From Candidatus Omnitrophota bacterium (GTDB lineage: Bacteria > Omnitrophota > Gorgyraeia > JABMRJ01), in contig JBDRDE010000078.1 of NCBI GenBank assembly GCA_043821065.1, forward strand, positions 1 through 26,182: 26,182 nt of DNA. Direction: 5' to 3'. Under the pieces are notes generated by a model that saw only the letters and a list, made by a program, of their open reading frames with translations, made no database searches and was not told the DNA's origin. Positions 4,349-23,189 of the stretch are shown here, piece by piece (within the stretch, counting starts at the first letter, position 1; each line of letters opens with the position of its first letter). The position numbers and the translations under genes were made by a program.

Positions 4349-6295
4349 ATGCGTAAGCCCATGTCAGGATATATAAATCTCGCGATACCGGCTCTCCTCG
4401 TCACTCTAACCGTCGCATTCTGCCTGCCGGTCATCCTGCCCCTGAACAAGGTCGTAATTGAGGACGTCTACCTTGAGATCTGCTCGTTCATTGACCTTAA
4501 TCTCATGCATTTATCAGAGGGGCACAGGATCCCGTTTTGGGCCTTTCATTTCGGCGGAGGATATCCATTTCTCAAGCATCCTGACAACATGTCATTAAGC
4601 CCTTTATTCTATATTCTGATGGTCCCTTTCGGAAGCGCCGCGGGAGTTAAGCTTTTTATCCTCTTTTCGTACTGCGTTGGCGTAACAGGCTTTTACCTGT
4701 TCGCTAACAGGGTATTGAGATTAGGACAGGCAGGCTCCGCGATCGGCGCCATGTACTTTATCTTTAACAGCTTCATGCCCTATCAGATCAATACGGGCCA
4801 CATAAAGGATTTTAGCTGGTTTTATCTGCCCCTTGTAACATTTTGCCTATACGTTTCGAAAGAAGATCGGCGCTTTATATTCTTTGGGGCCTCTCTTGTA
4901 ACATTGGTCATATTAAACGGTTTCAGCCTCTATCTCGCGCCTATGGTCTTGCTGCTATTTTTGCTCGCCTTGTTAAACGATATCCCGCCTCACCAGGACC
5001 GCTTCATGGGCCAAAAGAGGCTTCTCTGCAATCTGCTTCTCATATTGGCCATCGCTTTTCTTTTGGGCGCGGTAAAGATATTTCCCATGCTTGAACTCTT
5101 TAAAGTGACTATGCGCGCGAAAGGGTATGCCGATGCCGCGCGCTATTCCATGACATTCGGCAAGATGATCTCGGCCTTCTTTTCCAGGGGTCCCTACGCG
5201 GTAGGCAATGAGGTCGCGATGGGCCCAAACGGCCTAAATATGGGCAGCGTGATGTACTTCGGCCTCATCCCAGGTTTTTTCTTTCTCCTCTCCTGCGTAT
5301 TCGCATTCATGAAGATATGGCGATATCTGCTGGCAATGACTCTCTTTATCCTTATGGGCATGGCCTATAACAGCCCTATAGACCTATTCTATATGCTCTG
5401 GCGCCTCCCGCTGTTCGGGTCCATGCATGAGGTGGCGCGTTACTTCTCCTTCCCCGCGGTCTTTTTGGCTTCCGTGATTATGGGCACCTTCTTCACATCC
5501 GGGCTATTTACACGTCTTAAAAAACACTTTAAGGTGTTATTATGTTTGCTCGCGCTCGTCGGGGCGGCAGACATGTTCGTTTCTAACGCCAGGTATTTTG
5601 AATTTACCGCGCTCAATCAGGCTGATGCGCCAAAGATGCGCGCCAATGAGGGTGAGTTCTTCAACGTGAGAAAGGAGCACCTATATCGCGCTCAACGGCA
5701 GCCTTTTTTTGACCCTGTCCGGAAATGGCCGCAAAAATATTACGAGGAGTTAATGGCCGGCATTCAGTACTACCTTGTAAGGCAAAATATAGGCCTTATA
5801 GACTGGTTCTGCGATATCCCGCTGCCTTCATACGCGGCGGCCAAATACGGGGTGCTCATAGGCTACGGTGAATACTGGAAGGACTTTAGGGGCGATATAT
5901 CCGAAAGAAACGGGGTGCTGCGCCTTGACGGTTATAAGGGCGAGTGCTTCTTCAGGGACCACGCGGGAAACAGGGTAAAGAGCGTGAAGTGGAATACGGA
6001 TGAGATAGTGATAGACATCGGGCAGATCTATCCGGATAAGCTTGTGGTAAACCAGAATTACGACAGGGATTGGACGGCCGATCCCGGGGCCATCTTTGAC
6101 GCCAATGGCCTGCTGGGCATAGCGCTCGACAAGCCAGTTAACGGGCATGTTACGCTTAATTACCGCCCAAAAGCTTTTTACGCCGGACTGACGGTAAGCT
6201 TGCTGACCTTGATTTTCTGCCTGGCCTGCTTGCTCGTACGCAAAGCGCGTAAAGATACCGCGGGAGGTCAACGCTCGTCTAACAATCTAAGGTAA
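4349..6295 (+). CDS. YfhO-like polytopic membrane protein (putative GT-C glycosyltransferase)
   Basis: TM1 followed by an acidic ED pair; IPFWAFHFGGGYPFLKHPDNMSLSP (YfhO-like PxW...GGYP motif); many TM segments; C-terminal extracytoplasmic domain with NQNYDRDW and VTLNYRP before the last TM. Start moved to 4349 (or 4361) because the track's ATG 4328 lies inside the promoter. Confidence 0.7.
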   Translation: MRKPMSGYINLAIPALLVTLTVAFCLPVILPLNKVVIEDVYLEICSFIDLNLMHLSEGHRIPFWAFHFGGGYPFLKHPDNMSLSPLFYILMVPFGSAAGVKLFILFSYCVGVTGFYLFANRVLRLGQAGSAIGAMYFIFNSFMPYQINTGHIKDFSWFYLPLVTFCLYVSKEDRRFIFFGASLVTLVILNGFSLYLAPMVLLLFLLALLNDIPPHQDRFMGQKRLLCNLLLILAIAFLLGAVKIFPMLELFKVTMRAKGYADAARYSMTFGKMISAFFSRGPYAVGNEVAMGPNGLNMGSVMYFGLIPGFFFLLSCVFAFMKIWRYLLAMTLFILMGMAYNSPIDLFYMLWRLPLFGSMHEVARYFSFPAVFLASVIMGTFFTSGLFTRLKKHFKVLLCLLALVGAADMFVSNARYFEFTALNQADAPKMRANEGEFFNVRKEHLYRAQRQPFFDPVRKWPQKYYEELMAGIQYYLVRQNIGLIDWFCDIPLPSYAAAKYGVLIGYGEYWKDFRGDISERNGVLRLDGYKGECFFRDHAGNRVKSVKWNTDEIVIDIGQIYPDKLVVNQNYDRDWTADPGAIFDANGLLGIALDKPVNGHVTLNYRPKAFYAGLTVSLLTLIFCLACLLVRKARKDTAGGQRSSNNLR

Positions 6296-16433: not shown

Positions 16434-17963
16434 TTAATCTTTATTTTTGATATAAGCCTTTATTATCTTCGCTTCCCCCGTAGGCTTCTTGCCCGCATCT
16501 ACAGGGAGCTCCTCTATTTTTTCCACAACGTCATATCCGGATATTACATGTCCGAATATCGTATGCTTCTTATTAAGCCAGGGTGTCTCCTTTGTAGTTA
16601 TAAAGAACTGGCTCTGATTTGTATTCGGCCCTGAATTGGCCATCGCCAGGATCCCGGGCTTATCGAATGTGAGGTCGTCGCTCACCTCATCCACGAAAGG
16701 CTTGCCCCATATGGACTCTCCGCCGGTACCTGTAGCTGTGGGGTCGCCCCCCTGTATCATAAAGTCTTTTATGACCCTATGGAACAGGATGCCGTCATAA
16801 TACCCTTTTTCCACCAGCCCTATAAAGTTCTCACAGGCATAGGGCGCCTTGTCACAGAACAACTCTAGCTCTATTATACCATGATTTGTCTCTAAGGCAA
16901 GCGATGATTTAGACTTAAGCCCGTCTATCTTCTGCGCCTGCCGCTCCTGCCAGACGAAATCCTTATAGCCGGCCCGCTTGAAGAGGTCCTCGAAGTACTC
17001 TTTTGCTATCGAGCGCTTTCTATACATCGTCATTGTGTTCTTATAGTATTCTTTCTTCTTTTCGTCATACTTCTCCATGTCGGCTTCTTTTTTCTGTAAA
17101 AGCCTGAAGACCGCGTTGCCGTAAAAGTACTTCGCTGGTATGAAATTGCCGTTTTCGTGCTCTAGTATACGGTAAGCGTCCTCCTTGGGTATCTTCCAAA
17201 GGTCTATGAGGGCCTCTAGAGACATGGTGTTTATCCAGGAAGCCCCTTTCTGCCCGAGCGGCTTCTTCTCGTCCCACATCTCTTTCCAGAGAGCCGGCTT
17301 GGCCGTGAACTTCTTCGCGTGCTCTTTCGCCTCGTCTTCAGTATCAAAGTTTATATATTCGGACTCAAAAGAGTTATACTGGTTTTTGAATTTCTGCAGC
17401 ATCTCGTCTTCGGTGACAGTGATCTCCGGATTGCCCTTCTCAGAGAGGAATTTATTTACTATGAGGAGGTCCTCTATCCTCCTTTCGAACGTGGCTGTAT
17501 CCTCTCTCAGGTTCTCTTGGGGCCACATTCTGTACGCGTCCGTACCGTACTCTACGTCCTTCTCCGCCATAAGGCGCGTGAGTTGTTCCTTTAGCTCCTC
17601 ATTTGATACGGTGACCCCAAGCTCTCCGGCTTCATGTCTATACACGAGGTTCTGCCAGGCCTCCGCACGCACCTCCTCTTCATCCCTATCCTCGATACCT
17701 GTGCGCGTAAAGATGGATGAAGTGATAAGGTAATAATGGAACTCCCGGGCGGTCACCGGCTTGCCGAACGCCTCGCCTATTATGTTGGGGTCCCGCTTTT
17801 GGGGCTCCTGCGCAGCAACGGTGGTCGAACACAGGGCTAGGAGTGTCATTGCGAGGAGCCCCCGCTTACATGCGGCGACGAAGCAATCTAGGACGTCCTG
17901 GATTGCTTCGTCGGCCCGTAGAAAACTAGGCCTCCTCGCAATGACAGTGTGGCGGCTACTCAC
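16434..17963 (-). CDS. Exported foldase: SurA/PrsA-like N-domain fused to a cyclophilin-type PPIase
   Basis: SurA-N-like segments (GKPVTAREF, EAGELGVTVSNEEL, ITVTEDEM). Complete cyclophilin domain (APYACENF, YYDGILFHRVIKDFMIQGGDPT, GILAMANSGPNTNQSQFFIT, WLNKKHTIFG). GTG start coupled to the upstream TAG (TAGTG). Confidence 0.88.
   Translation of the reverse strand: MSSRHTVIARRPSFLRADEAIQDVLDCFVAACKRGLLAMTLLALCSTTVAAQEPQKRDPNIIGEAFGKPVTAREFHYYLITSSIFTRTGIEDRDEEEVRAEAWQNLVYRHEAGELGVTVSNEELKEQLTRLMAEKDVEYGTDAYRMWPQENLREDTATFERRIEDLLIVNKFLSEKGNPEITVTEDEMLQKFKNQYNSFESEYINFDTEDEAKEHAKKFTAKPALWKEMWDEKKPLGQKGASWINTMSLEALIDLWKIPKEDAYRILEHENGNFIPAKYFYGNAVFRLLQKKEADMEKYDEKKKEYYKNTMTMYRKRSIAKEYFEDLFKRAGYKDFVWQERQAQKIDGLKSKSSLALETNHGIIELELFCDKAPYACENFIGLVEKGYYDGILFHRVIKDFMIQGGDPTATGTGGESIWGKPFVDEVSDDLTFDKPGILAMANSGPNTNQSQFFITTKETPWLNKKHTIFGHVISGYDVVEKIEELPVDAGKKPTGEAKIIKAYIKNKD
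17845..17945. repeat. ~101-bp nested palindromic repeat, copy 1 (in frame in foldase N-terminus)
   Basis: 14-bp terminal IR GTCATTGCGAGGAG/CTCCTCGCAATGAC; inner IR GACGAAGCAATC-TAGGACGTCCTG-GATTGCTTCGTC. Confidence 0.95.
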
Positions 17964-18490
17964 TATTCCTTCTCCTTCTCAACGATCTTTATCGTGATAG
18001 GCTTGGATTTGATCTTCTCTTTAAAGGCGTCGATCCCTATCTCCTTACCGAAGACATTCTGATAGACAGCCGTGATCTTATATTTACCGGTTTTTTCAAA
18101 ATCGAAGAGGTGTTTTATGCCCTGTTTTCTTTCGCGCTCTATCTCACCGCCCGGCTCGAGCAGGATAAAGTGGTCGGTCCTTGGGAGGCCCGTCTCATAA
18201 GATGTCTTATAGGCGAGCTCCTCTCCTTCTGGAGATATCACGGATAGATATATATCTTTTTGGTCCGCGGGGGCTTCCTTTGAGCTTAGATACATCCTGT
18301 TATTGACATAGACAGGGTCCTTGCCTTTATTCTTGAGCTTGAATGTGAGGCTGATGGGCTCGCCCAGGGTATACTCATCCTTATCCGCAAAGACTATAAG
18401 CTCTACGCTTCCCGCAGCATAAAGCCTGCCGGTATAGCAGAAAAGAAGAGTCGTAGTTATAAGAAGGCCTATTAAAAACCTGTAATACAT
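17963..18490 (-). CDS. Exported hypothetical protein, probable beta-sandwich (Ig-like) domain
   Basis: Signal peptide ending LYA; DKDEYTLGEPISLTFKLKN...; GKYKITAVY; alternating beta-strand pattern. Confidence 0.7.
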   Translation of the reverse strand: MYYRFLIGLLITTTLLFCYTGRLYAAGSVELIVFADKDEYTLGEPISLTFKLKNKGKDPVYVNNRMYLSSKEAPADQKDIYLSVISPEGEELAYKTSYETGLPRTDHFILLEPGGEIERERKQGIKHLFDFEKTGKYKITAVYQNVFGKEIGIDAFKEKIKSKPITIKIVEKEKE

Positions 18491-18500
18491 ATAATAAATA

Positions 18501-19568
18501 TTACCTTATTCTATCCTGCTTTATGTTGTCGAACGTCTCCCATGTAAGAAGATACTTCTTTACCCAGTCTACATCTTTATCGTTGCTCTCGGCGTATCTC
18601 AGATAATGCCTGAAGTGCTCTATGGCTTTAGCCCTGTCAGCAAAATACTCGCCGTAAATATAGCCCAGGTTGAAGTGCGAATGCGCGTCCTTTGGATTGA
18701 TCTCCGTAGACTTGACGAATTCGGATATTGCCCTCTTGTACTCTTTGCTGTTTGTATAAAATACGCCGAGATTGTAGTGCATCTGGGCCGTCTCTCTAAC
18801 AAGCTGCTTGTTCTGCCTCGCCATCTCTGAGAACTTCCGCGGAAGGTCTCTGGCTTCGCGCACGAGATCTTTATTCTTCTTCTCTGCCTCCATGAACTTG
18901 CCTTTATACTCATCACCGCTTATGCGAAGCGCGGCTATCCTCTTCTCGGCCTTTCCCAGATCTCTCTCGTGTTTGCGCGTCTCGCGCTTTGCCTTCTTAA
19001 ATTCGCTCTGGAGCTTCTTATATTCTTTCTGTAACGCGGCTAGTTTTACTTTGTTCTTCTTCTCCAGGTCTGTGACTTTGCGCTTGTAATCCTCTTCTAC
19101 CTCTTTCGCCTGGGTCAGACCCTGGGCGGCCTTCTTCTTCTCCAGTTCGGCTTTCTGATCATCCAACGCCGCTTGCTGCGCCATCTTTTCCGATTTCAGG
19201 CTGTCGATCTCGGCCTGGAGCTCCAGCTCTCGCTTCTCGATCTCCATCTTTTCTTTATCGAAGAGCTTCTTCATCGTCTCGAACTTCTCCAAAGCCGCCT
19301 TGCTCTCTTCGGACCCGCTCTTCTCGGCAATGAGTCGTTTCGTCTGCACGAGGAGGTTATTGCGATCTTTCTCCACGGCTTTGTACTTTAAAGAGAGCTC
19401 TTCAAACTTCCGATCCATATCGCTCTTCTCTTGCTGTATCGCTGCTACATCGATGGCAGGCTTGGCCTTCTTTATCTTCTGTGACTTATTTGCGAAATAT
19501 ATAAGCCCGGCGCCTTCGGCGAATATAAAGACTATTATCAGTATTATTAATATCTTAAATTTATCCAT
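18501..19568 (-). CDS. Membrane-anchored coiled-coil protein with C-terminal TPRs
   Basis: N-terminal TM, long K/E-rich heptad region, HYNLGVFY and HFNLGYIY TPRs. GGAG RBS before ATG 19568. Confidence 0.8.
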   Translation of the reverse strand: MDKFKILIILIIVFIFAEGAGLIYFANKSQKIKKAKPAIDVAAIQQEKSDMDRKFEELSLKYKAVEKDRNNLLVQTKRLIAEKSGSEESKAALEKFETMKKLFDKEKMEIEKRELELQAEIDSLKSEKMAQQAALDDQKAELEKKKAAQGLTQAKEVEEDYKRKVTDLEKKNKVKLAALQKEYKKLQSEFKKAKRETRKHERDLGKAEKRIAALRISGDEYKGKFMEAEKKNKDLVREARDLPRKFSEMARQNKQLVRETAQMHYNLGVFYTNSKEYKRAISEFVKSTEINPKDAHSHFNLGYIYGEYFADRAKAIEHFRHYLRYAESNDKDVDWVKKYLLTWETFDNIKQDRIR

Positions 19569-19584
19569 CGCGGTCTCCAATCTC

Positions 19585-19686
19585 GTCTTTGCGAGGAGCT
19601 ACTGTTGGCACATGGCGACGAAGCAATCTAGGATGTCTTAGATTGCTTCGTCGGCCTATGCGTTAACAATGCCTTCTCGCAATGAC
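19585..19686. repeat. ~102-bp nested palindromic repeat, copy 2 (intergenic)
   Basis: GTCTTTGCGAGGAG...GACGAAGCAATC-TAGGATGTCTTA-GATTGCTTCGTC...CTCGCAATGAC. Confidence 0.95.
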
Positions 19687-19690
19687 AGGG

Positions 19691-21577
19691 TTAATTCTTT
19701 TTATCGTCGGCATCATATGCCCTATATGGCTTCATCATCTTCTCTGGCTCTGACTTCGGCATATCGAATCCTGCGTCTTCGGTGAATCCGGGGTACTCCC
19801 TGTAATCCTTGCCTGACTCATGCTTCTTCTTTCTGTCATCTTCGCCTGTAACCAGTGAATCTCCTTCAACTATAGTGGGTGTTATCATTATCATCAGCTC
19901 AGCCGTATCCACTCCATCCGAGCTCGTTCTGAAGAACCTCCCTACAAGGGGCAGGTCGCTTAAAAACGGGACCCCGCTTTTGGCCACAGTCTTCACATCA
20001 CGGCGCAGGCCTCCGATAATAATAGTGGCGCCGTCTTTGACCAGGACAGTGGTCTCCGCGGTCGATGTATCGATGATCGGTATCTGGTTGCCGGTAGGTG
20101 TTATGAGGGTATCCGTAACAGCCGATATCTCAGGTTTTATCTTCATCCTTATGTAACCATCGTCGTTTATGGTTGGCGTGACAGCGAGTTGTATGCCGAC
20201 ATCCACGAATGTGACCTCTTCAGATACGGTCGTCGTCGTCTGGCCGGTCGTTGTGGTCGTTGTAACATAGGCCTCGCGCTGCCCCACATGTATCCTCGCC
20301 TCCTGGTTGTTAATAACGGCTATCCTTGGGTTAGAGAGAAGCTGAGTATTTCCTACGGTCTGCAGCCATCTAAAGAAGAGGTCGAAATCCCTGTTCCTAT
20401 TTATTATACCTACATGCATCGACTCCCCGGGCGCAACCTGCGAACTTGAGTTCAGGTCGTCCGTCGTACCGCTAAAAGGATAAGAGCCTATGTTATTATC
20501 TAAGGCATCCGTCACCTGGGTCCTTGTCCTGAAGGCGTCGCCGGCAGCCTGGATAGCGGCAAAGGGCGTGGAACCAAAATATGTAAGGCCGTATTTTATT
20601 CCTACGTTAAAGAGCCCTTCCCACCTGAACTGCCAATCCGTGCCGTCAATAAACCTGACGTTTATGATCCGGGAGTCTATCAGGACCGATTTGGTCTTCT
20701 GATCGAGAGCCTCTATGAGCTTCTCGATCTCGCTCATCCTGTCCGGGAGGGCCTGCACTATAACGAGGTTCTCGCGCTCGTCCGCCTTTATCGTACCGAC
20801 CTTCTTGGCGTCTAGGCGGCTCCTGAGCTGCTCTTCGACATCTATAGCCCTGGCGTACTTGAGCTCGAATACGGTAACGATATTCTCTTTATCGAGCGTC
20901 ATGAGGGCGTTTTCGATCGTCCTGATATTCTCCGGAGTATCCATTACAAGGGCCGTTCCCGAATCAGGCTCAACGAGCACCCTGCCTATGTCGCTCTTCA
21001 TCGTATCGAGCAATGTGAACGCCTGTTCCGGTATAGCGTACTTCAGCCTGAATATCCTGACTTCGCGCATGTCGGAAAACTTCTTCCCCACCAGTCCCCT
21101 ATACTCATCTTCGGACATGATATTATATATTTCGCCCTGTTTCAGGTACGCCAGTTCGTTCGATCTGAGCATTATGTCGAAGACATCCTTTACGAAAACA
21201 TCCTGTACCGATAACGTGATCCTTCCGGAGACCTTCTTTGTCGTGATTATATTGAGCCTCGCTTTTGTAGCCAAGAACTTCAAGGCGTCGTTTATATCGA
21301 TATTGCGCAAATCGAGAGAGATCTTGCCTTCCATGCCTTCGTCTATAAAATCGACCTGGGCACCGCCAAGCGCCGATTCGTCGGTCAAGGCCTGTGTCAA
21401 ATAGGCGCCATCATCCTGGGCGTAGACAGCGGTGCATAGGAACAGTACGAGAACCGAGAACGTCATTGCGAGGAGCCACTGTTTAGATACAACGACGAAG
21501 CAATCTAGGACATCCTGGATTGCTTCGTCGGCCTGTAGAAAACTATGCCTTCTCGCAATGACAGTATTATTACTCAT
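19691..21577 (-). CDS. Outer-membrane secretin, GspD/PilQ family
   Basis: STN/N0-like ISLDLRNIDINDAL, two N-domain repeats (xFxLKYA), C-domain LLSNPRIAVINNQEARIHVG, DVGIQLAVTPTI, TVLVKDGATIIIGGL, GVPFLSDLPLVGRFF. ATGA overlap with the upstream gene. Confidence 0.93.
   Translation of the reverse strand: MSNNTVIARRHSFLQADEAIQDVLDCFVVVSKQWLLAMTFSVLVLFLCTAVYAQDDGAYLTQALTDESALGGAQVDFIDEGMEGKISLDLRNIDINDALKFLATKARLNIITTKKVSGRITLSVQDVFVKDVFDIMLRSNELAYLKQGEIYNIMSEDEYRGLVGKKFSDMREVRIFRLKYAIPEQAFTLLDTMKSDIGRVLVEPDSGTALVMDTPENIRTIENALMTLDKENIVTVFELKYARAIDVEEQLRSRLDAKKVGTIKADERENLVIVQALPDRMSEIEKLIEALDQKTKSVLIDSRIINVRFIDGTDWQFRWEGLFNVGIKYGLTYFGSTPFAAIQAAGDAFRTRTQVTDALDNNIGSYPFSGTTDDLNSSSQVAPGESMHVGIINRNRDFDLFFRWLQTVGNTQLLSNPRIAVINNQEARIHVGQREAYVTTTTTTGQTTTTVSEEVTFVDVGIQLAVTPTINDDGYIRMKIKPEISAVTDTLITPTGNQIPIIDTSTAETTVLVKDGATIIIGGLRRDVKTVAKSGVPFLSDLPLVGRFFRTSSDGVDTAELMIMITPTIVEGDSLVTGEDDRKKKHESGKDYREYPGFTEDAGFDMPKSEPEKMMKPYRAYDADDKKN
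21462..21562. repeat. ~101-bp nested palindromic repeat, copy 3 (in frame in secretin N-terminus)
   Basis: GTCATTGCGAGGAG...GACGAAGCAATC-TAGGACATCCTG-GATTGCTTCGTC...CTCGCAATGAC. Confidence 0.95.
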
Positions 21578-22248
21578 TTAAGCTCCGCCTCCGCGCCTTC
21601 GTAGCTCAATATCACTTTATCCTGGGATATCGCCTGGACTTTCAATTTTCCTATCATCTGACCCCTCTTCACAAAGAATGTCCGCACTGCCTCTGTATCT
21701 TCTATCATGGCGTCCGGGTTGCTCGACCATGATATACCGACAAGCCTTAGGTTCTGCATAAGCTCCCTTATAGTCTCCTCAGCCGGCTCCACGTTAACTA
21801 CTTCCTCTACAACGGTTATGTCGGTCGTGCCCATCCTGAAAATATTCCTTTCGATCACCTTTTCCGTGTAGTATGAGACGGCCCTTAAAGGCGATACCGC
21901 GGGAAAGGCCGCCGATTTAAGGGCATCTTTCGTTCCTGCAGCCAGGTTCGGCAGCGTTTTCATATTATATATAGAGTCGTAAAGCGTAAACGAGAAATAC
22001 CCGATAAGGGCGGTGATCGAAAGAATGAGCATCCTATTTACAGACTTGATATCGAACTGCCTCACACCCGCGCCTTTTGACAAGCCGTCTTTGAAGAAGA
22101 AGAACCTGCCCTTCCACGCGCCCGGGGAGAAGAGCCCGGGGCCCCTCTTTCTTGCCGCCTTGCCTTTTACAGACGCCCCTGATGCGCCGTCTTTTTCAAG
22201 GAGCTTTAAAAGTTGTTTTTCTGGAGTACTGCGTTCTTTCTGTGCCAT
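21574..22248 (-). CDS. GspC/PilP-like inner-membrane component
   Basis: Single TM, RNIF motif, then LRLVGI.W...AMIED......VKRG..I...KVQAI..DKVIL, an HR-domain-like pattern; directly upstream of the secretin. Confidence 0.7.
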   Translation of the reverse strand: MAQKERSTPEKQLLKLLEKDGASGASVKGKAARKRGPGLFSPGAWKGRFFFFKDGLSKGAGVRQFDIKSVNRMLILSITALIGYFSFTLYDSIYNMKTLPNLAAGTKDALKSAAFPAVSPLRAVSYYTEKVIERNIFRMGTTDITVVEEVVNVEPAEETIRELMQNLRLVGISWSSNPDAMIEDTEAVRTFFVKRGQMIGKLKVQAISQDKVILSYEGAEAELK

Positions 22249-23075
22249 CCCGCCCTTTTCTCTTCCTCGACTATCTCTCTAACAGATATGGCGTCAACCA
22301 CGTATCTGTTCCGCAAAACGACGTTCTTAAGCGCCTTGTGACACAGCATCGTGATCTGCCTGGGGTAGCCGCGGCTCTGCTCGTGTATCTCCCTGATGGC
22401 ATCATCCAAGAAGAGCTTCATATTTGCCTCGTAACCCGCCTGTCTTATGCGAAACTCTATCATCTCTTTTGTCTCTTTGAGGTCAAGGGGGTTGAGCGTG
22501 TATTTAAAACTTATACGGTCGAAGAAATTTGGTATATCTATTATCTTTGAATACAACTCAAGCTGTCCCAAGAGGACCAACTGCAGAAGCTTGAATTTGT
22601 TAGTCTCGTAATTTAATAGGACGCGCAGGACCTCGAGAGAGGTATGGTCCAGCTTCTGGGCCTCATCGATGATCAATGTAACGGTCTTATCTTCTGTAAC
22701 GCCTTTCTGAAATAGAAATCTCTCCAATGCTTCTCTAAGGTCCAGTAAAGTGAGCGGCTCACTGTTGTTTATATTAATATCGAAGTTTCTTGCCAGGGAT
22801 GTCAAAAACATCTGCTCGTTCTCGAAGGATGGGTCCAGGATAATATGGAAGACAATATCGTCCCTCTCCTTCAGCTCATGTATCAGCTTTCTTGTAAGGC
22901 TCGTCTTCCCCGTGCCGACATCACCCAGGATAACGGATAGGCCCCTTTTGAGCCTAAGCTCTATAAGTATATTTGTCAGCGCCGCCTCGTGCTCTTTAGA
23001 CAGATAGAAGAACTCAGGGTCCGGGCTTGTCGAGAAAGGCTCTTTATTGAATGTCAATACTTTATAGTAGCTCAT
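22206..23075 (-). CDS. exeA: ExeA/GspA-family AAA ATPase
   Basis: EPFSTSPDPEFFY, Walker A GDVGTGKT, Walker B LIIDEAQ, LVLLGQLEL, SRGYPRQI. Confidence 0.9.
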   Translation of the reverse strand: MSYYKVLTFNKEPFSTSPDPEFFYLSKEHEAALTNILIELRLKRGLSVILGDVGTGKTSLTRKLIHELKERDDIVFHIILDPSFENEQMFLTSLARNFDININNSEPLTLLDLREALERFLFQKGVTEDKTVTLIIDEAQKLDHTSLEVLRVLLNYETNKFKLLQLVLLGQLELYSKIIDIPNFFDRISFKYTLNPLDLKETKEMIEFRIRQAGYEANMKLFLDDAIREIHEQSRGYPRQITMLCHKALKNVVLRNRYVVDAISVREIVEEEKRAGWHRKNAVLQKNNF

Positions 23076-23090
23076 ATATGATATAGAGTG

Positions 23091-23173
23091 TTGCGGTTAT
23101 CGGTTTGCGGTTAGCGGTGTGCGGTGTGCGTTTTTTGATATACGCTAACCGCGAACCGCAAACCGCGAACCGA
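23091..23173. repeat. Inverted array of imperfect heptamers (NNGCGGT x6 / NAACCGC x4)
   Basis: ttgcggt tatcggt ttgcggt tagcggt gtgcggt gtgcgtt ... taaccgc gaaccgc aaaccgc gaaccga; the arms pair in register. Confidence 0.9.
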
Positions 23174-23189
23174 GACATACTGTTAGCAA

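What the first reader, a model, noticed from the sequence alone, without database searches (positions are those of the whole stretch)
17845..21577. A palindromic repeat sits in frame in the signal-peptide regions of two exported proteins in one operon
Seen: repeat copies 1 and 3 each begin 5-6 codons after a start codon that is coupled to the upstream stop (TAG/GTG at 17963; ATGA at 21574-21577). Each adds 34 in-frame residues: VIARRPSFLRADEAIQDVLDCFVAACKRGLLAMT in the foldase and VIARRHSFLQADEAIQDVLDCFVVVSKQWLLAMT in the secretin. These run directly into a hydrophobic stretch and an AxA-type cleavage site. The repeat's 3' part supplies the basic residue(s) and the first hydrophobic residues. 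The intergenic copy 2 has a TAA in the equivalent frame and ATG changed to AAG, and its downstream gene has its own GGAG-ATG. Known analogy: Rickettsia palindromic elements insert in frame in proteins. Inference: the repeat has been recruited as N-terminal signal-peptide sequence (tolerated because it is cleaved off), or it donates the start codon from its right inverted repeat (GCAATGAC). Its strong mRNA structure could also tune translation of secretion genes.
Basis: partly seen in the sequence, partly recalled or inferred. Interest (0 to 1): 0.82.

Follow-up and report, generated by a model that had tools for sequence, protein, structure and literature searches.

The report
Hairpin repeats translated inside signal peptides
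Two copies of a widespread bacterial hairpin repeat sit in frame inside the export signals of a secretin and a periplasmic foldase of an uncultured Omnitrophota bacterium; they are most likely translated and then cut off with the signal peptide, a new location for the known habit of such repeats of landing inside genes.

Summary
Three ~101-nt palindromic repeats lie at 17845-17945, 19585-19686 and 21462-21562. Copies 1 and 3 are stop-free and in frame between a stop-coupled start codon and the hydrophobic core of a signal peptide. Copy 2 is intergenic.

Related genomes show that both copies sit inside ancestral coding sequence. A same-genus genome and a syntenic contig have empty secretin sites with the same ATGA-coupled start. 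The syntenic contig keeps only the last 15 nt of the repeat in its foldase gene, where it encodes LLAMT of a normal signal peptide. Two other secretin orthologs carry differently built repeats at the same spot, and both stay open from the coupled ATG.

The repeat is a CGTC-tagged REP, the class that includes Rickettsia RPE-4/6 and Neisseria NTS. It occurs as singlets and inverted doublets at 52 loci in this genome. A small GIY-YIG (Ssn-like) gene is flanked by it. It is also in frame inside CarB, GltB, TrmD and a PrmC-like methyltransferase.

Best reading: tolerated, translated insertions that are removed with the signal peptide. Initiation at the repeat's own terminal ATG cannot be excluded, and seems required at another locus. 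Earlier notes of this scan report the same thing in other Omnitrophota genomes. Interest is moderate.

The parts
21462..21562 (-). Repeat copy 3: inverted doublet of a CGTC-tagged REP. It lies in frame in the secretin 5' coding region and encodes VIARRHSFLQADEAIQDVLDCFVVVSKQWLLAM(T).
   Evidence: The RNA hairpin window folds at -59.9 kcal/mol, z -6.5.
21563..21577 (-). First five codons of the secretin (MSNNT). The ATG at 21577-21575 overlaps the TGA of the upstream 224-aa gene (ATGA), with GGAG 5 nt upstream. This is the ancestral start.
   Evidence: The same GGAGCTTAAATGA junction is found in G001, L147, L148 and L149.
21464..21466 (-). ATG inside the right terminal inverted repeat (CTCGCAATGAC), in frame with the secretin. 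It is the alternative start and lies in the basal stem of the hairpin.
21419..21461 (-). Hydrophobic core and cleavage region of the secretin signal peptide: (T)FSVLVLFLCTAVYA, followed by QDD.
   Evidence: It aligns with the signal peptides of empty-site orthologs, for example MIKKVHKNIIYLTIAVFCFCGVAHA|QEE.
19691..21577 (-). Secretin gene (GspD/PilQ-like), 628 codons from the coupled ATG.
   Evidence: Pfam Secretin 4.6e-49, Secretin_N, STN. Orthologs are from Candidatus Omnitrophota.
19585..19686 (-). Repeat copy 2: intergenic doublet between the secretin stop and the SD/ATG of the TPR/coiled-coil gene. It has three stops in the equivalent frame, and its terminal ATG is mutated to AAG.
   Evidence: The junction is only 25 nt and repeat-free in L149. 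L148 has a doublet there.
17845..17945 (-). Repeat copy 1: doublet in frame in the PPIase 5' coding region. It encodes VIARRPSFLRADEAIQDVLDCFVAACKRGLLAM(T).
   Evidence: The hairpin window folds at -73.9 kcal/mol, z -6.9.
17946..17963 (-). First six codons of the PPIase (GTG-SSRHT). The GTG at 17963-17961 shares its G with the upstream TAG. These codons are homologous to the ATGA-coupled MSRK of the L149 ortholog.
17847..17849 (-). ATG inside the right terminal inverted repeat of copy 1. The public gene call starts here (471 aa).
   Evidence: P0122
17811..17844 (-). Hydrophobic core and cleavage region of the PPIase signal peptide: (T)LLALCSTTVAA, followed by QEP.
   Evidence: Orthologs carry ordinary signal peptides at this position.
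16434..17963 (-). SurA_N-like plus cyclophilin peptidyl-prolyl isomerase gene.
   Evidence: Pfam Pro_isomerase 3.1e-54, SurA_N_2
21574..22248 (-). Upstream 224-aa gene whose stop overlaps the secretin start. It is conserved in synteny in L147, L148 and L149.

Best explanation
The three elements are inverted doublets of a CGTC/TGTC-tagged REP. Each unit is (C/T)GTC-ATTGCGAG - variable hairpin - CGAAGCAATC-TAG. This is the same architecture as Neisseria NTS/dRS3 and Rickettsia RPE-4/6. In this lineage the repeat accompanies a small Ssn-like GIY-YIG nuclease gene.

The operon is tightly packed and has almost no intergenic DNA. Copies 1 and 3 landed inside the 5' coding sequence, between the charged n-region and the hydrophobic h-region of the signal peptides of the PPIase and the secretin. 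They persist for three reasons. They are a multiple of three (102 nt with one flank base). They are stop-free in the frame used. They lie in the one part of an exported protein that is both sequence-tolerant and removed by signal peptidase.

Ribosomes that start at the ancestral, stop-coupled start codon read through the hairpin. The 34 extra residues become a long n-region. The repeat's last codons (K/R ... LLAMT) supply the positive charge next to the h-region and the first hydrophobic residues.

Shown: the insertion lies inside ancestral CDS; the frame is maintained across orthologs; the family is translated in other genes. Inferred: the actual start used, cleavage of the signal peptide, and near-neutrality of the insertions.
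For: 1. Empty sites. The same-genus genome G001 (81% identical secretin) and the syntenic contig L149 have no repeat. They have the same GGAGCTTAAATGA junction, so the ATG at 21577 is the ancestral start and the repeat lies downstream of it.
2. Frame kept despite remodelling. Orthologs P0003 (L147) and P0006 (L148) carry repeats at the same place and start at the coupled ATG. They stay open for 70 and 47 codons. L148 enters the repeat in another frame (CHREE) yet exits as LLAMT. L147 holds a decayed copy with a nested second REP family.
3. Remnant. The L149 PPIase starts ATGA-coupled as ATG AGC CGA AAG CTC CTC GCA ATG ACA. That is MSRK-LLAMT-IWISLFTISVNTAVA|QES, with 15 nt identical to the repeat end. 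Its MSRK is homologous to our GTG-SSRH.
4. Open frames outnumber closed ones. Of six 5' insertion states examined, five are open to the upstream start (our two, L147, L148, and the C237 LolA-like gene) and one is not (C64). If the frame were irrelevant, each would have roughly a 0.13-0.2 chance of being open (1/3 for phase times 0.39 for stop-freeness).
5. The family is translated elsewhere in this genome. In-frame copies sit between or within Pfam domains of CarB, GltB, TrmD and a PrmC-like methyltransferase, and in IspG of relative G018.
6. Identity of the repeat. The base before GTCATTGCGAG is C in 45, T in 20, A in 3 and G in 0 of 68 ends. Singlets and inverted doublets both occur. The 98-aa GIY-YIG gene at G000:C263 abuts a copy, and its homologs in six relatives are flanked on both sides. 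Co-occurrence gives Fisher p = 9e-4.
7. More signal-peptide cases in relatives: L170 and L171 and P0267.
Against: - There are no expression or proteomic data, and SignalP was not available.
- The terminal ATG of the repeat is always in frame and directly precedes the h-region, so a start there gives a plausible, if uncharged, signal peptide (MTFSVLVLFLCTAVYA; MTLLALCSTTVAA).
- The public gene call for the PPIase uses that ATG.
- At C64 (BatC-like TPR protein) stops inside the repeat leave only the terminal ATG or a loop GTG as start. L170 looks similar. Start donation therefore does occur in this family.
- A hairpin of about -60 to -74 kcal/mol that begins 15-18 nt after the start codon could depress initiation or elongation.
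- The PPIase start is GTG, where the ortholog has ATG.
- The orthologous cases are not fully independent. Ours and L147 are sisters and share the left junction.
- Stop-freeness of the ATG frame is common (39%).
Confidence: 0.62

Rival explanations
1. Start-codon donation. After insertion, the functional start moved to the ATG in the repeat's outer end. RC of the tag CGTCAT is ATGACG, so every CGTC REP carries an outward-reading ATG. On this reading the repeat is effectively an intercistronic hairpin. The open frame from the old start is then either a short coupled leader that melts the stem, or is unused.
For: - The terminal ATG is in frame and abuts the h-region at four loci of this genome (both window loci, C64, C237) and in relatives (L170, L171).
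- At C64 the frame is closed inside the repeat, while orthologs begin MMLKRIILF..., so only the terminal ATG or a loop GTG can start there.
- The public annotation starts the PPIase at this ATG.
- The PPIase's old start is now GTG.
Against: - The ATG has no Shine-Dalgarno. It is preceded by CUCCUC and is paired in the basal stem of a very stable hairpin.
- The resulting signal peptides would lack any charged n-region.
- The old coupled start with GGAG is intact in all repeat-bearing orthologs, and the frame from it is open in 5 of 6 cases, which this model does not require.
- In L149 the remnant LLAMT clearly lies downstream of a normal MSRK start.
- If ribosomes do start at the coupled ATG, they necessarily make the long protein.
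Confidence: 0.25
2. Selected regulatory element. The hairpins are kept because they do something for the secretion operon. Candidates are throttling translation of the secretin and foldase, stabilising mRNA segments, or serving as Ssn nuclease sites that shape recombination or transformation around these genes. This could hold on top of either start model.
For: - Three copies cluster in 3.7 kb, each just upstream of or inside the 5' end of a gene for an exported or membrane protein.
- The structures are very stable (z -6.5 to -8.4).
- Repeats occur at the same junctions in L147 and L148.
- NTS/SRM repeats cluster around particular genes in Neisseria and are cut by SsnA (PMC11893778).
Against: - Close relatives do without them. 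G001 has no copy of the family in 1.1 Mb, and L149 has empty or remnant sites.
- The old copy in L147 has lost its hairpin yet is retained as coding sequence.
- The family is patchy among 40 relatives and sits at many unrelated junctions and genes.
- No covariation or conservation beyond family identity was detected. Orthologous-position copies are no more alike than random family members.
Confidence: 0.1
3. Artefact or decay. The repeats mark assembly chimeras in a fragmented MAG, or the two genes are pseudogenes disrupted by mobile DNA.
For: The genome is a 281-contig MAG at 84% completeness and 4.5% contamination. Repeats are classic sites of misassembly.
Against: - Both genes are full-length, with intact domains and strong coding signal.
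- Synteny of the whole operon is shared with three independent contigs from other samples.
- Independent assemblies show repeats at the same sites.
- The insertions are exact multiples of three without stops.
Confidence: 0.03

Closest known systems
CGTC-tagged REPs (Di Nocera, De Gregorio & Rocco 2013, BMC Genomics 14:522, PMC3733652). The group includes Rickettsia RPE-4/RPE-6 and Neisseria dRS3.
   Same: - A terminal CGTC/TGTC tag.
- A stem that starts with A-T pairs.
- Singlets plus inverted dimers that can fold into one long hairpin.
- Location mainly between co-directional genes.
- No flanking transposase.
- Known to occur inside ORFs, including at N-termini.
   Different: - Units here are longer (about 45-50 nt, with a second, variable inner hairpin) than the published 8-9-bp-stem, 4-5-nt-loop families.
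- The host is Omnitrophota.
- The paper treats N-terminal copies as ambiguous and does not mention signal peptides. Here orthologs show that the copies lie inside ancestral signal-peptide coding sequence.
NTS / Ssn-related motifs (SRM) and the SsnA GIY-YIG ssDNA nuclease (Chenal et al. 2025, Nat Commun 16:2388, PMC11893778)
   Same: - The same outer signature: CGTCATT...AATCYRG.
- A small single-domain GIY-YIG gene abutted by the repeat in this genome, and flanked on both sides in six relatives.
- Presence of the gene goes with repeat abundance across relatives.
   Different: - The published degenerate SRM search string matches none of the 52 loci here.
- Assignment of the nuclease to cd10448 was not tested, and cleavage was not testable here.
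- The paper concerns transformation and genome dynamics, not translated copies.
Rickettsia palindromic elements as in-frame insertions in proteins. The Ogata et al. work is cited from my own knowledge; it is summarised in PMC3733652.
   Same: Palindromic repeats are inserted in frame in functional genes and translated. N-terminal decorated proteins are reported as expressed. This genome likewise has copies in CarB, GltB, TrmD and a PrmC-like methyltransferase.
   Different: RPE peptides stay in the mature protein, typically on surface loops. Here the insert lies in a cleavable signal peptide and should be absent from the mature protein.
REPINs and RAYT transposases (Bertels & Rainey 2011, PMC3116915)
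   Same: Inverted REP doublets of about 100 nt form a long hairpin and coexist with singlet remnants. The distribution among related genomes is patchy.
   Different: - The tag is CGTC, not GTAG.
- The RAYT-like genes of this genome are not flanked by the repeat. One is flanked by unrelated 35-nt inverted repeats, a 'TIRtron'.
Extended signal peptide regions (ESPR) of autotransporters and other long Sec signal peptides (from my own knowledge)
   Same: A long N-terminal extension ahead of a normal n-h-c signal peptide is compatible with Sec export.
   Different: ESPR is a conserved, functional protein motif. Here the extension is the by-product of a mobile DNA hairpin and varies between close relatives.

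Membership tests
CGTC-tagged REP superfamily (PMC3733652) | Unpaired terminal tag CGTC (often TGTC) | tested here: met
   The base before GTCATTGCGAG is C in 45, T in 20, A in 3 and G in 0 of 68 ends in the genome.
CGTC-tagged REP superfamily (PMC3733652) | The stem begins with complementary A-T pairs at positions 1 and 2, followed by a short tail after the stem | tested here: met
   ATTGC...GCAAT follows the tag directly, and the tail is CTAG(G).
CGTC-tagged REP superfamily (PMC3733652) | Small unit: 8-9-bp stem and 4-5-nt loop (20-40 bp) | tested here: inconclusive
   Window units are about 45-50 nt, with an interrupted two-tier stem and a variable inner part. Relatives have 26-38-nt units of the same family.
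CGTC-tagged REP superfamily (PMC3733652) | Occurs as singletons and inverted dimers, mostly between co-directional or convergent genes, and is not associated with a transposase | tested here: met
   There are 52 loci. 17 are doublets of at least 85 nt and 32 are singlets under 60 nt. Most fill same-strand junctions. The Y1 transposase genes are not flanked by the repeat.
Ssn-related motif / Ssn nuclease system (PMC11893778) | Motif with the NTS-type outer signature CGTCATT ... AATCYRG | tested here: met
   (C/T)GTCATTGCGAG...CGAAGCAATCTAG, compared with the NTS definition.
Ssn-related motif / Ssn nuclease system (PMC11893778) | Matches the published degenerate SRM search string | tested here: not met
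   0 of 52 loci match. The genome has 7 matches, against 10.4 in shuffles.
Ssn-related motif / Ssn nuclease system (PMC11893778) | The genome encodes a small single-domain GIY-YIG (Ssn) protein whose gene is flanked by the motif | tested here: met
   G000:C263 125-421(-) encodes 98 aa and scores 58 bits against PF01541. The repeat overlaps its stop. Homologs in G018, G029, G031, G023, G038 and G022 are flanked on both sides within 27-60 nt.
Ssn-related motif / Ssn nuclease system (PMC11893778) | Gene presence goes with repeat abundance across genomes | tested here: met
   A strong homolog is present in 9 of 13 genomes with at least 5 repeats and in 4 of 28 with fewer. Fisher p = 9e-4. The genomes are related, so the test overstates.
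Ssn-related motif / Ssn nuclease system (PMC11893778) | The protein belongs to clade cd10448 and cuts ssDNA next to the hairpin | not testable with these tools
REPIN-RAYT system (PMC3116915) | A cognate RAYT gene flanked by the same REP, with a GTAG tag | tested here: not met
   The RAYT-like ORFs (NF047646 at 52 and 66 bits, below the cut-off of 80) lie on contigs without the repeat. One has unrelated 35-nt inverted repeats. The tag is CGTC.
In-frame palindromic insertions of the RPE type | The repeat lies inside an otherwise intact, conserved gene, in frame and stop-free, with homology on both sides | tested here: met
   - CarB: repeat at aa 488-525, between CPSase_L_D3 and the second CPSase_L_D1.
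- GltB: aa 453-478, between GATase_2 and Glu_syn_central.
- TrmD: aa 81-96.
- PrmC-like methyltransferase: aa 105-120.
- Secretin and PPIase, by comparison with empty-site orthologs.
Sec-type cleavable signal peptide (host context) | A charged n-region, a hydrophobic h-region of about 10-20 aa, and small residues at -3/-1 | tested here: inconclusive
   By inspection, and with a crude home-made rule, the h- and c-regions are present for both start options. The charge next to the h-region comes only from the repeat (SKQW, CKRG). SignalP was not available.

The most novel reading that the evidence does not exclude
In Omnitrophota, whose operons have almost no intergenic DNA, signal-peptide coding regions act as the main safe harbour for Ssn-associated CGTC REPs, and these repeats in turn remodel export signals. 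The complement of the tag (ATGAC) repeatedly supplies Met-Thr or even a new start codon. The stem supplies LLA. The preceding codons supply the basic residues. Remnants become fixed as ordinary signal-peptide sequence, as in L149. The hairpin just after a coupled start may additionally set the translation rate of secretion-machinery genes.
Probability: 0.2. Interest if true: 0.7.

Novelty: new variant of a known kind. Interest (0 to 1): 0.5.

Why it matters
- It gives a concrete, testable example of how selfish hairpin repeats survive in very compact genomes. They can sit inside coding sequence where the product is discarded, namely the signal peptide.
- It shows a repeat remnant that has become ordinary signal-peptide sequence in a relative.
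- It has a practical side. These repeats corrupt start-codon calls. The public call for the foldase starts inside the repeat, while the call for the secretin starts upstream. They also inflate N-terminal 'extensions' in databases.
- It extends the Ssn/SRM association to Omnitrophota with a motif that the published search string misses.

Tried and rejected
- Rfam. An E-value scan of 17000-22500 found no family for the repeat. It gave only two sub-threshold chance hits.
- RAYT/REPIN link. Three Y1_Tnp hits exist but none is near the repeat. One is flanked by unrelated 35-nt inverted repeats.
- Sequencing runs. No population empty sites or RNA evidence were obtained.
- Published SRM string. It does not match these repeats.
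- Cross-phylum sample. I took 120 loci carrying the exact motif. Only 1 of 21 terminal-ATG ORFs of at least 100 aa starts with a hydrophobic core, so the signal-peptide pattern is not general outside Omnitrophota in that small, noisy sample.
- Enrichment at exported proteins within the genome. All 4 abutting cases are exported proteins, against a 32% background with a crude predictor. P is about 0.01-0.04, which is suggestive only.
- Orthology versus independent insertion of the secretin copies. The tree allows one gain plus one loss, or two gains. Copy similarity does not discriminate between them.
- Target-site duplication. None was seen beyond the Y at position -1 that belongs to the tag.
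- Literature. Full-text searches found no paper that describes REP or RPE copies in signal peptides, or this motif.
- One Pfam call on a short typed peptide added nothing.

Full report
**1. What is in the window**

All genes between about 15.6 and 23.1 kb lie on the minus strand and overlap or nearly touch. In order they are:
- an AAA_22 ATPase;
- a 224-aa protein;
- a secretin (Secretin, Secretin_N, STN);
- a TPR/coiled-coil protein;
- a 175-aa protein;
- a SurA_N-like plus cyclophilin PPIase.

Three copies of a 101-102-nt nested palindrome lie at 17845-17945, 19585-19686 and 21462-21562. Each has outer inverted repeats GTCATTGCGAG/CTCGCAATGAC. Each has an inner perfect hairpin, CGACGAAGCAATCYAGG...CCTAGATTGCTTCGTCG.

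As RNA, each window around a copy folds into one long hairpin. The energies are -56 to -74 kcal/mol and z is -6.5 to -8.4 against shuffles.

- Copy 3 follows five codons after an ATG that overlaps the upstream TGA (ATGA, 21574-21577).
- Copy 1 follows six codons after a GTG that shares its G with the upstream TAG (17963).
- Both are stop-free.
- Both end in ...LLAMT, directly before a hydrophobic stretch and a V-x-A site.

Copy 2 is intergenic. It has three stops in that frame and AAG in place of the terminal ATG. Its downstream gene has its own GGAG and ATG.

**2. Do the repeats really lie inside coding sequence?**

They do. No start codon lies between the repeat and the hydrophobic core of either signal peptide. 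The start must therefore be the upstream coupled codon or the ATG in the repeat's last five bases. Orthologs settle the ancestral state.

Secretin:
- The same-genus genome G001 (81% identical secretin) has no repeat. It has the junction GGAGCTTAAATGA followed by MIKKVHKNIIYLTIAVFCFCGVAHA|QEETAYLTQAL.
- G014 also has an ATGA-coupled start. G027 starts MRRSK... two bases after the upstream TAA.
- L149 is a syntenic metagenomic contig with proteins 73-76% identical. Its secretin junction is empty too, and its secretin-to-TPR spacer is a repeat-free 25 nt.

PPIase:
- In L149 the gene starts ATGA-coupled as ATG AGC CGA AAG CTC CTC GCA ATG ACA.
- The 15 bases GCTCCTCGCAATGAC are identical to the repeat's right end.
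- The protein begins MSRK-LLAMT-IWISLFTISVNTAVA|QES.
- This is a remnant of the element that is now ordinary signal-peptide sequence.
- Its MSRK matches our GTG-SSRH. The codons ahead of copy 1 are therefore the old n-region.

**3. Is the frame under selection?**

Two further secretin orthologs carry repeats at the same place. They are P0003 (L147, 80% identical) and P0006 (L148, 73%). Both are called from the ATGA-coupled ATG.
- L148's doublet is 109 nt. It is entered in a different frame (CHREE...) after 12 codons instead of 5, yet it leaves as LLAMT and is open for 47 codons.
- L147 shares our left junction (five codons, then GTCATT). Its copy has decayed and has a second REP family (ATTCCGGC type) nested in it. 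It is still open for 70 codons.
- In our genome the LolA-like gene on C237 shows the same pattern.
- Only the BatC-like gene on C64 has stops inside the repeat.

Genome-wide, the terminal-ATG frame is open through 39% of doublet orientations. A chance in-phase, open insertion therefore has a probability of about 0.13-0.2. Five open states out of six argue that continuity from the old start matters, which implies that ribosomes read through. The cases are not fully independent, because ours and L147 are sisters. I treat this as good evidence, not proof.

**4. The repeat family**

The genome is a 1.59-Mb MAG in 281 contigs, of Candidatus Omnitrophota by the names of homologs. It has 52 loci of the family. 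Singlets measure about 27-48 nt: GTCATTGCGAG, a variable hairpin, then CGAAGCAATCT. There are also 17 inverted doublets of 85 nt or more.

Most copies fill tight same-strand junctions. In this genome 27% of such junctions overlap, and 123 overlap by 4 nt.

The base before GTC is C or T at 65 of 68 ends. The unit is therefore (C/T)GTC-AT...AT-CTAG. This is the signature of the CGTC-tagged REPs of Di Nocera et al. (PMC3733652). That paper:
- places Rickettsia RPE-4/6 and Neisseria dRS3 in this superfamily;
- notes inverted dimers;
- notes the lack of an associated transposase;
- notes intragenic copies, including many at N-termini, which it regards as ambiguous.

Consistent with that, the RAYT-like genes here are not next to the repeat. 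One has unrelated 35-nt inverted repeats.

Earlier notes of this scan pointed to Chenal et al. 2025 (PMC11893778). That paper shows that NTS-type repeats (CGTCATTCCCGCG...GCGGGAATCYRG) are the cognate sites of small GIY-YIG single-strand nucleases (Ssn), whose genes they flank. I tested the link here.
- G000:C263 encodes a 98-aa GIY-YIG protein whose stop is overlapped by a repeat unit.
- Its homologs in six relatives are flanked on both sides, within 27-60 nt.
- Strong homologs occur in 9 of 13 relatives with at least 5 repeats and in 4 of 28 with fewer. Fisher p = 9e-4, with the caveat that the genomes are related.
- The published degenerate SRM string does not match these longer units.

This is therefore a divergent variant that works like an SRM, not a textbook one.

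The family is patchy. G001 has no copy and G018 has 53. The exact motif is found in many phyla.

**5. The family is translated elsewhere**

In-frame copies sit in:
- CarB, aa 488-525, splitting the oligomerisation domain from the second half;
- GltB, aa 453-478, between GATase_2 and the central domain;
- TrmD;
- a PrmC-like methyltransferase;
- a 4,426-codon open frame;
- several C-terminal tails.

A relative's IspG also carries one. Signal peptides are thus one tolerant site among several, like the loops and linkers used by RPEs.

Further signal-peptide cases appear in relatives:
- L170, a Wza-like protein;
- L171, MKNF-EIATRRFAALAMT-ILVVLLFTSTSRA|EF;
- P0267, a BatC-like ortholog, with another CGTC REP family (...IPAFAGMT-IFFFLALPAYA).

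Other repeat families decorate the N-termini of PPIase orthologs.

The complement of the tag plus the first stem bases (CGTCAT) is ATGACG. Every CGTC REP therefore offers an outward ATG-ACN (Met-Thr), which explains the recurrent ...AMT.

**6. Mechanism and rivals**

Most likely (about 0.6): the insertions are translated from the old coupled start as a long n-region, and the whole signal peptide is removed on export. They are tolerated, not recruited.

Main rival (about 0.25): initiation at the terminal ATG.
- For it: it must be used (or a loop GTG) at C64.
- For it: the public annotation uses it for the PPIase.
- Against it: the ATG lacks a Shine-Dalgarno, is buried in the basal stem, and gives uncharged signal peptides.

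A regulatory or Ssn-related role of the hairpins is possible but unsupported. Close relatives lack them, and a decayed copy persists as plain coding sequence.

**7. Novelty**

Intragenic and N-terminal REPs and RPEs are known. I found no paper that describes them in signal peptides, or this motif. Earlier entries of this scan report the same phenomenon in other Omnitrophota genomes, so it is a trait of the lineage and not a peculiarity of this window.

I rate it a new variant of a known kind, of moderate interest.

Noticed in passing
G000:C100 6242-6355; C212 1039-1114; C139 5626-5672 and 3446-3490; C104 9300-9346: Copies of the same repeat lie in frame inside CarB, GltB, TrmD, a PrmC-like methyltransferase and a 4,426-codon open frame. 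Pfam domains lie on both sides of, or span, the insert in the first four.
   Followed up: partly
G000:C263 85-421: A 98-aa single-domain GIY-YIG (Ssn-like) gene has its stop overlapped by a repeat unit. A 456-aa transposase-like ORF lies directly upstream. Homologs in six related genomes are flanked by the repeat on both sides.
   Followed up: yes
window 23089-23177; L147 about 4990-5060: A second repeat family, an inverted array of GCGGTTAGCGGT/ACCGCAAACCGC-type short units, lies upstream of the operon. In the related contig L147 the same family fills the secretin-to-TPR junction, where our window has repeat copy 2.
   Followed up: no
G000:C111 1382-2041 (L002): A RAYT-like Y1 transposase (219 aa; NF047646 at 52 bits, below cut-off) is flanked by unrelated 35-nt inverted repeats. 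This is a 'TIRtron' in the sense of Di Nocera et al., with no link to the CGTC repeat.
   Followed up: partly
window 16434-17963 and 19691-21577: Public gene calls are inconsistent. The PPIase is called from the ATG inside the repeat (471 aa). The secretin is called from the upstream coupled ATG (628 aa).
   Followed up: yes
PPIase orthologs P0129, P0143, P0157, P0159, P0160, P0166, P0233: Other palindromic or low-complexity repeat families (KKGTGYFF...KKVACPLF; NSKQIPNPK...FRISDFGF) are called as N-terminal extensions of the same exported PPIase in other Omnitrophota.
   Followed up: no
G000:C64 4907-5017 (L150): The BatC-like TPR protein has a doublet with in-frame stops directly before its hydrophobic core. 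Only the repeat's terminal ATG or a GTG in the apical loop can serve as start. Orthologs begin MMLKRIILF...
   Followed up: partly
window 19113-19166: A sub-threshold Rfam hit to archaeal C/D-box sR30 (27 bits against a gathering score of 38) lies inside the coiled-coil gene. It is probably chance.
   Followed up: no
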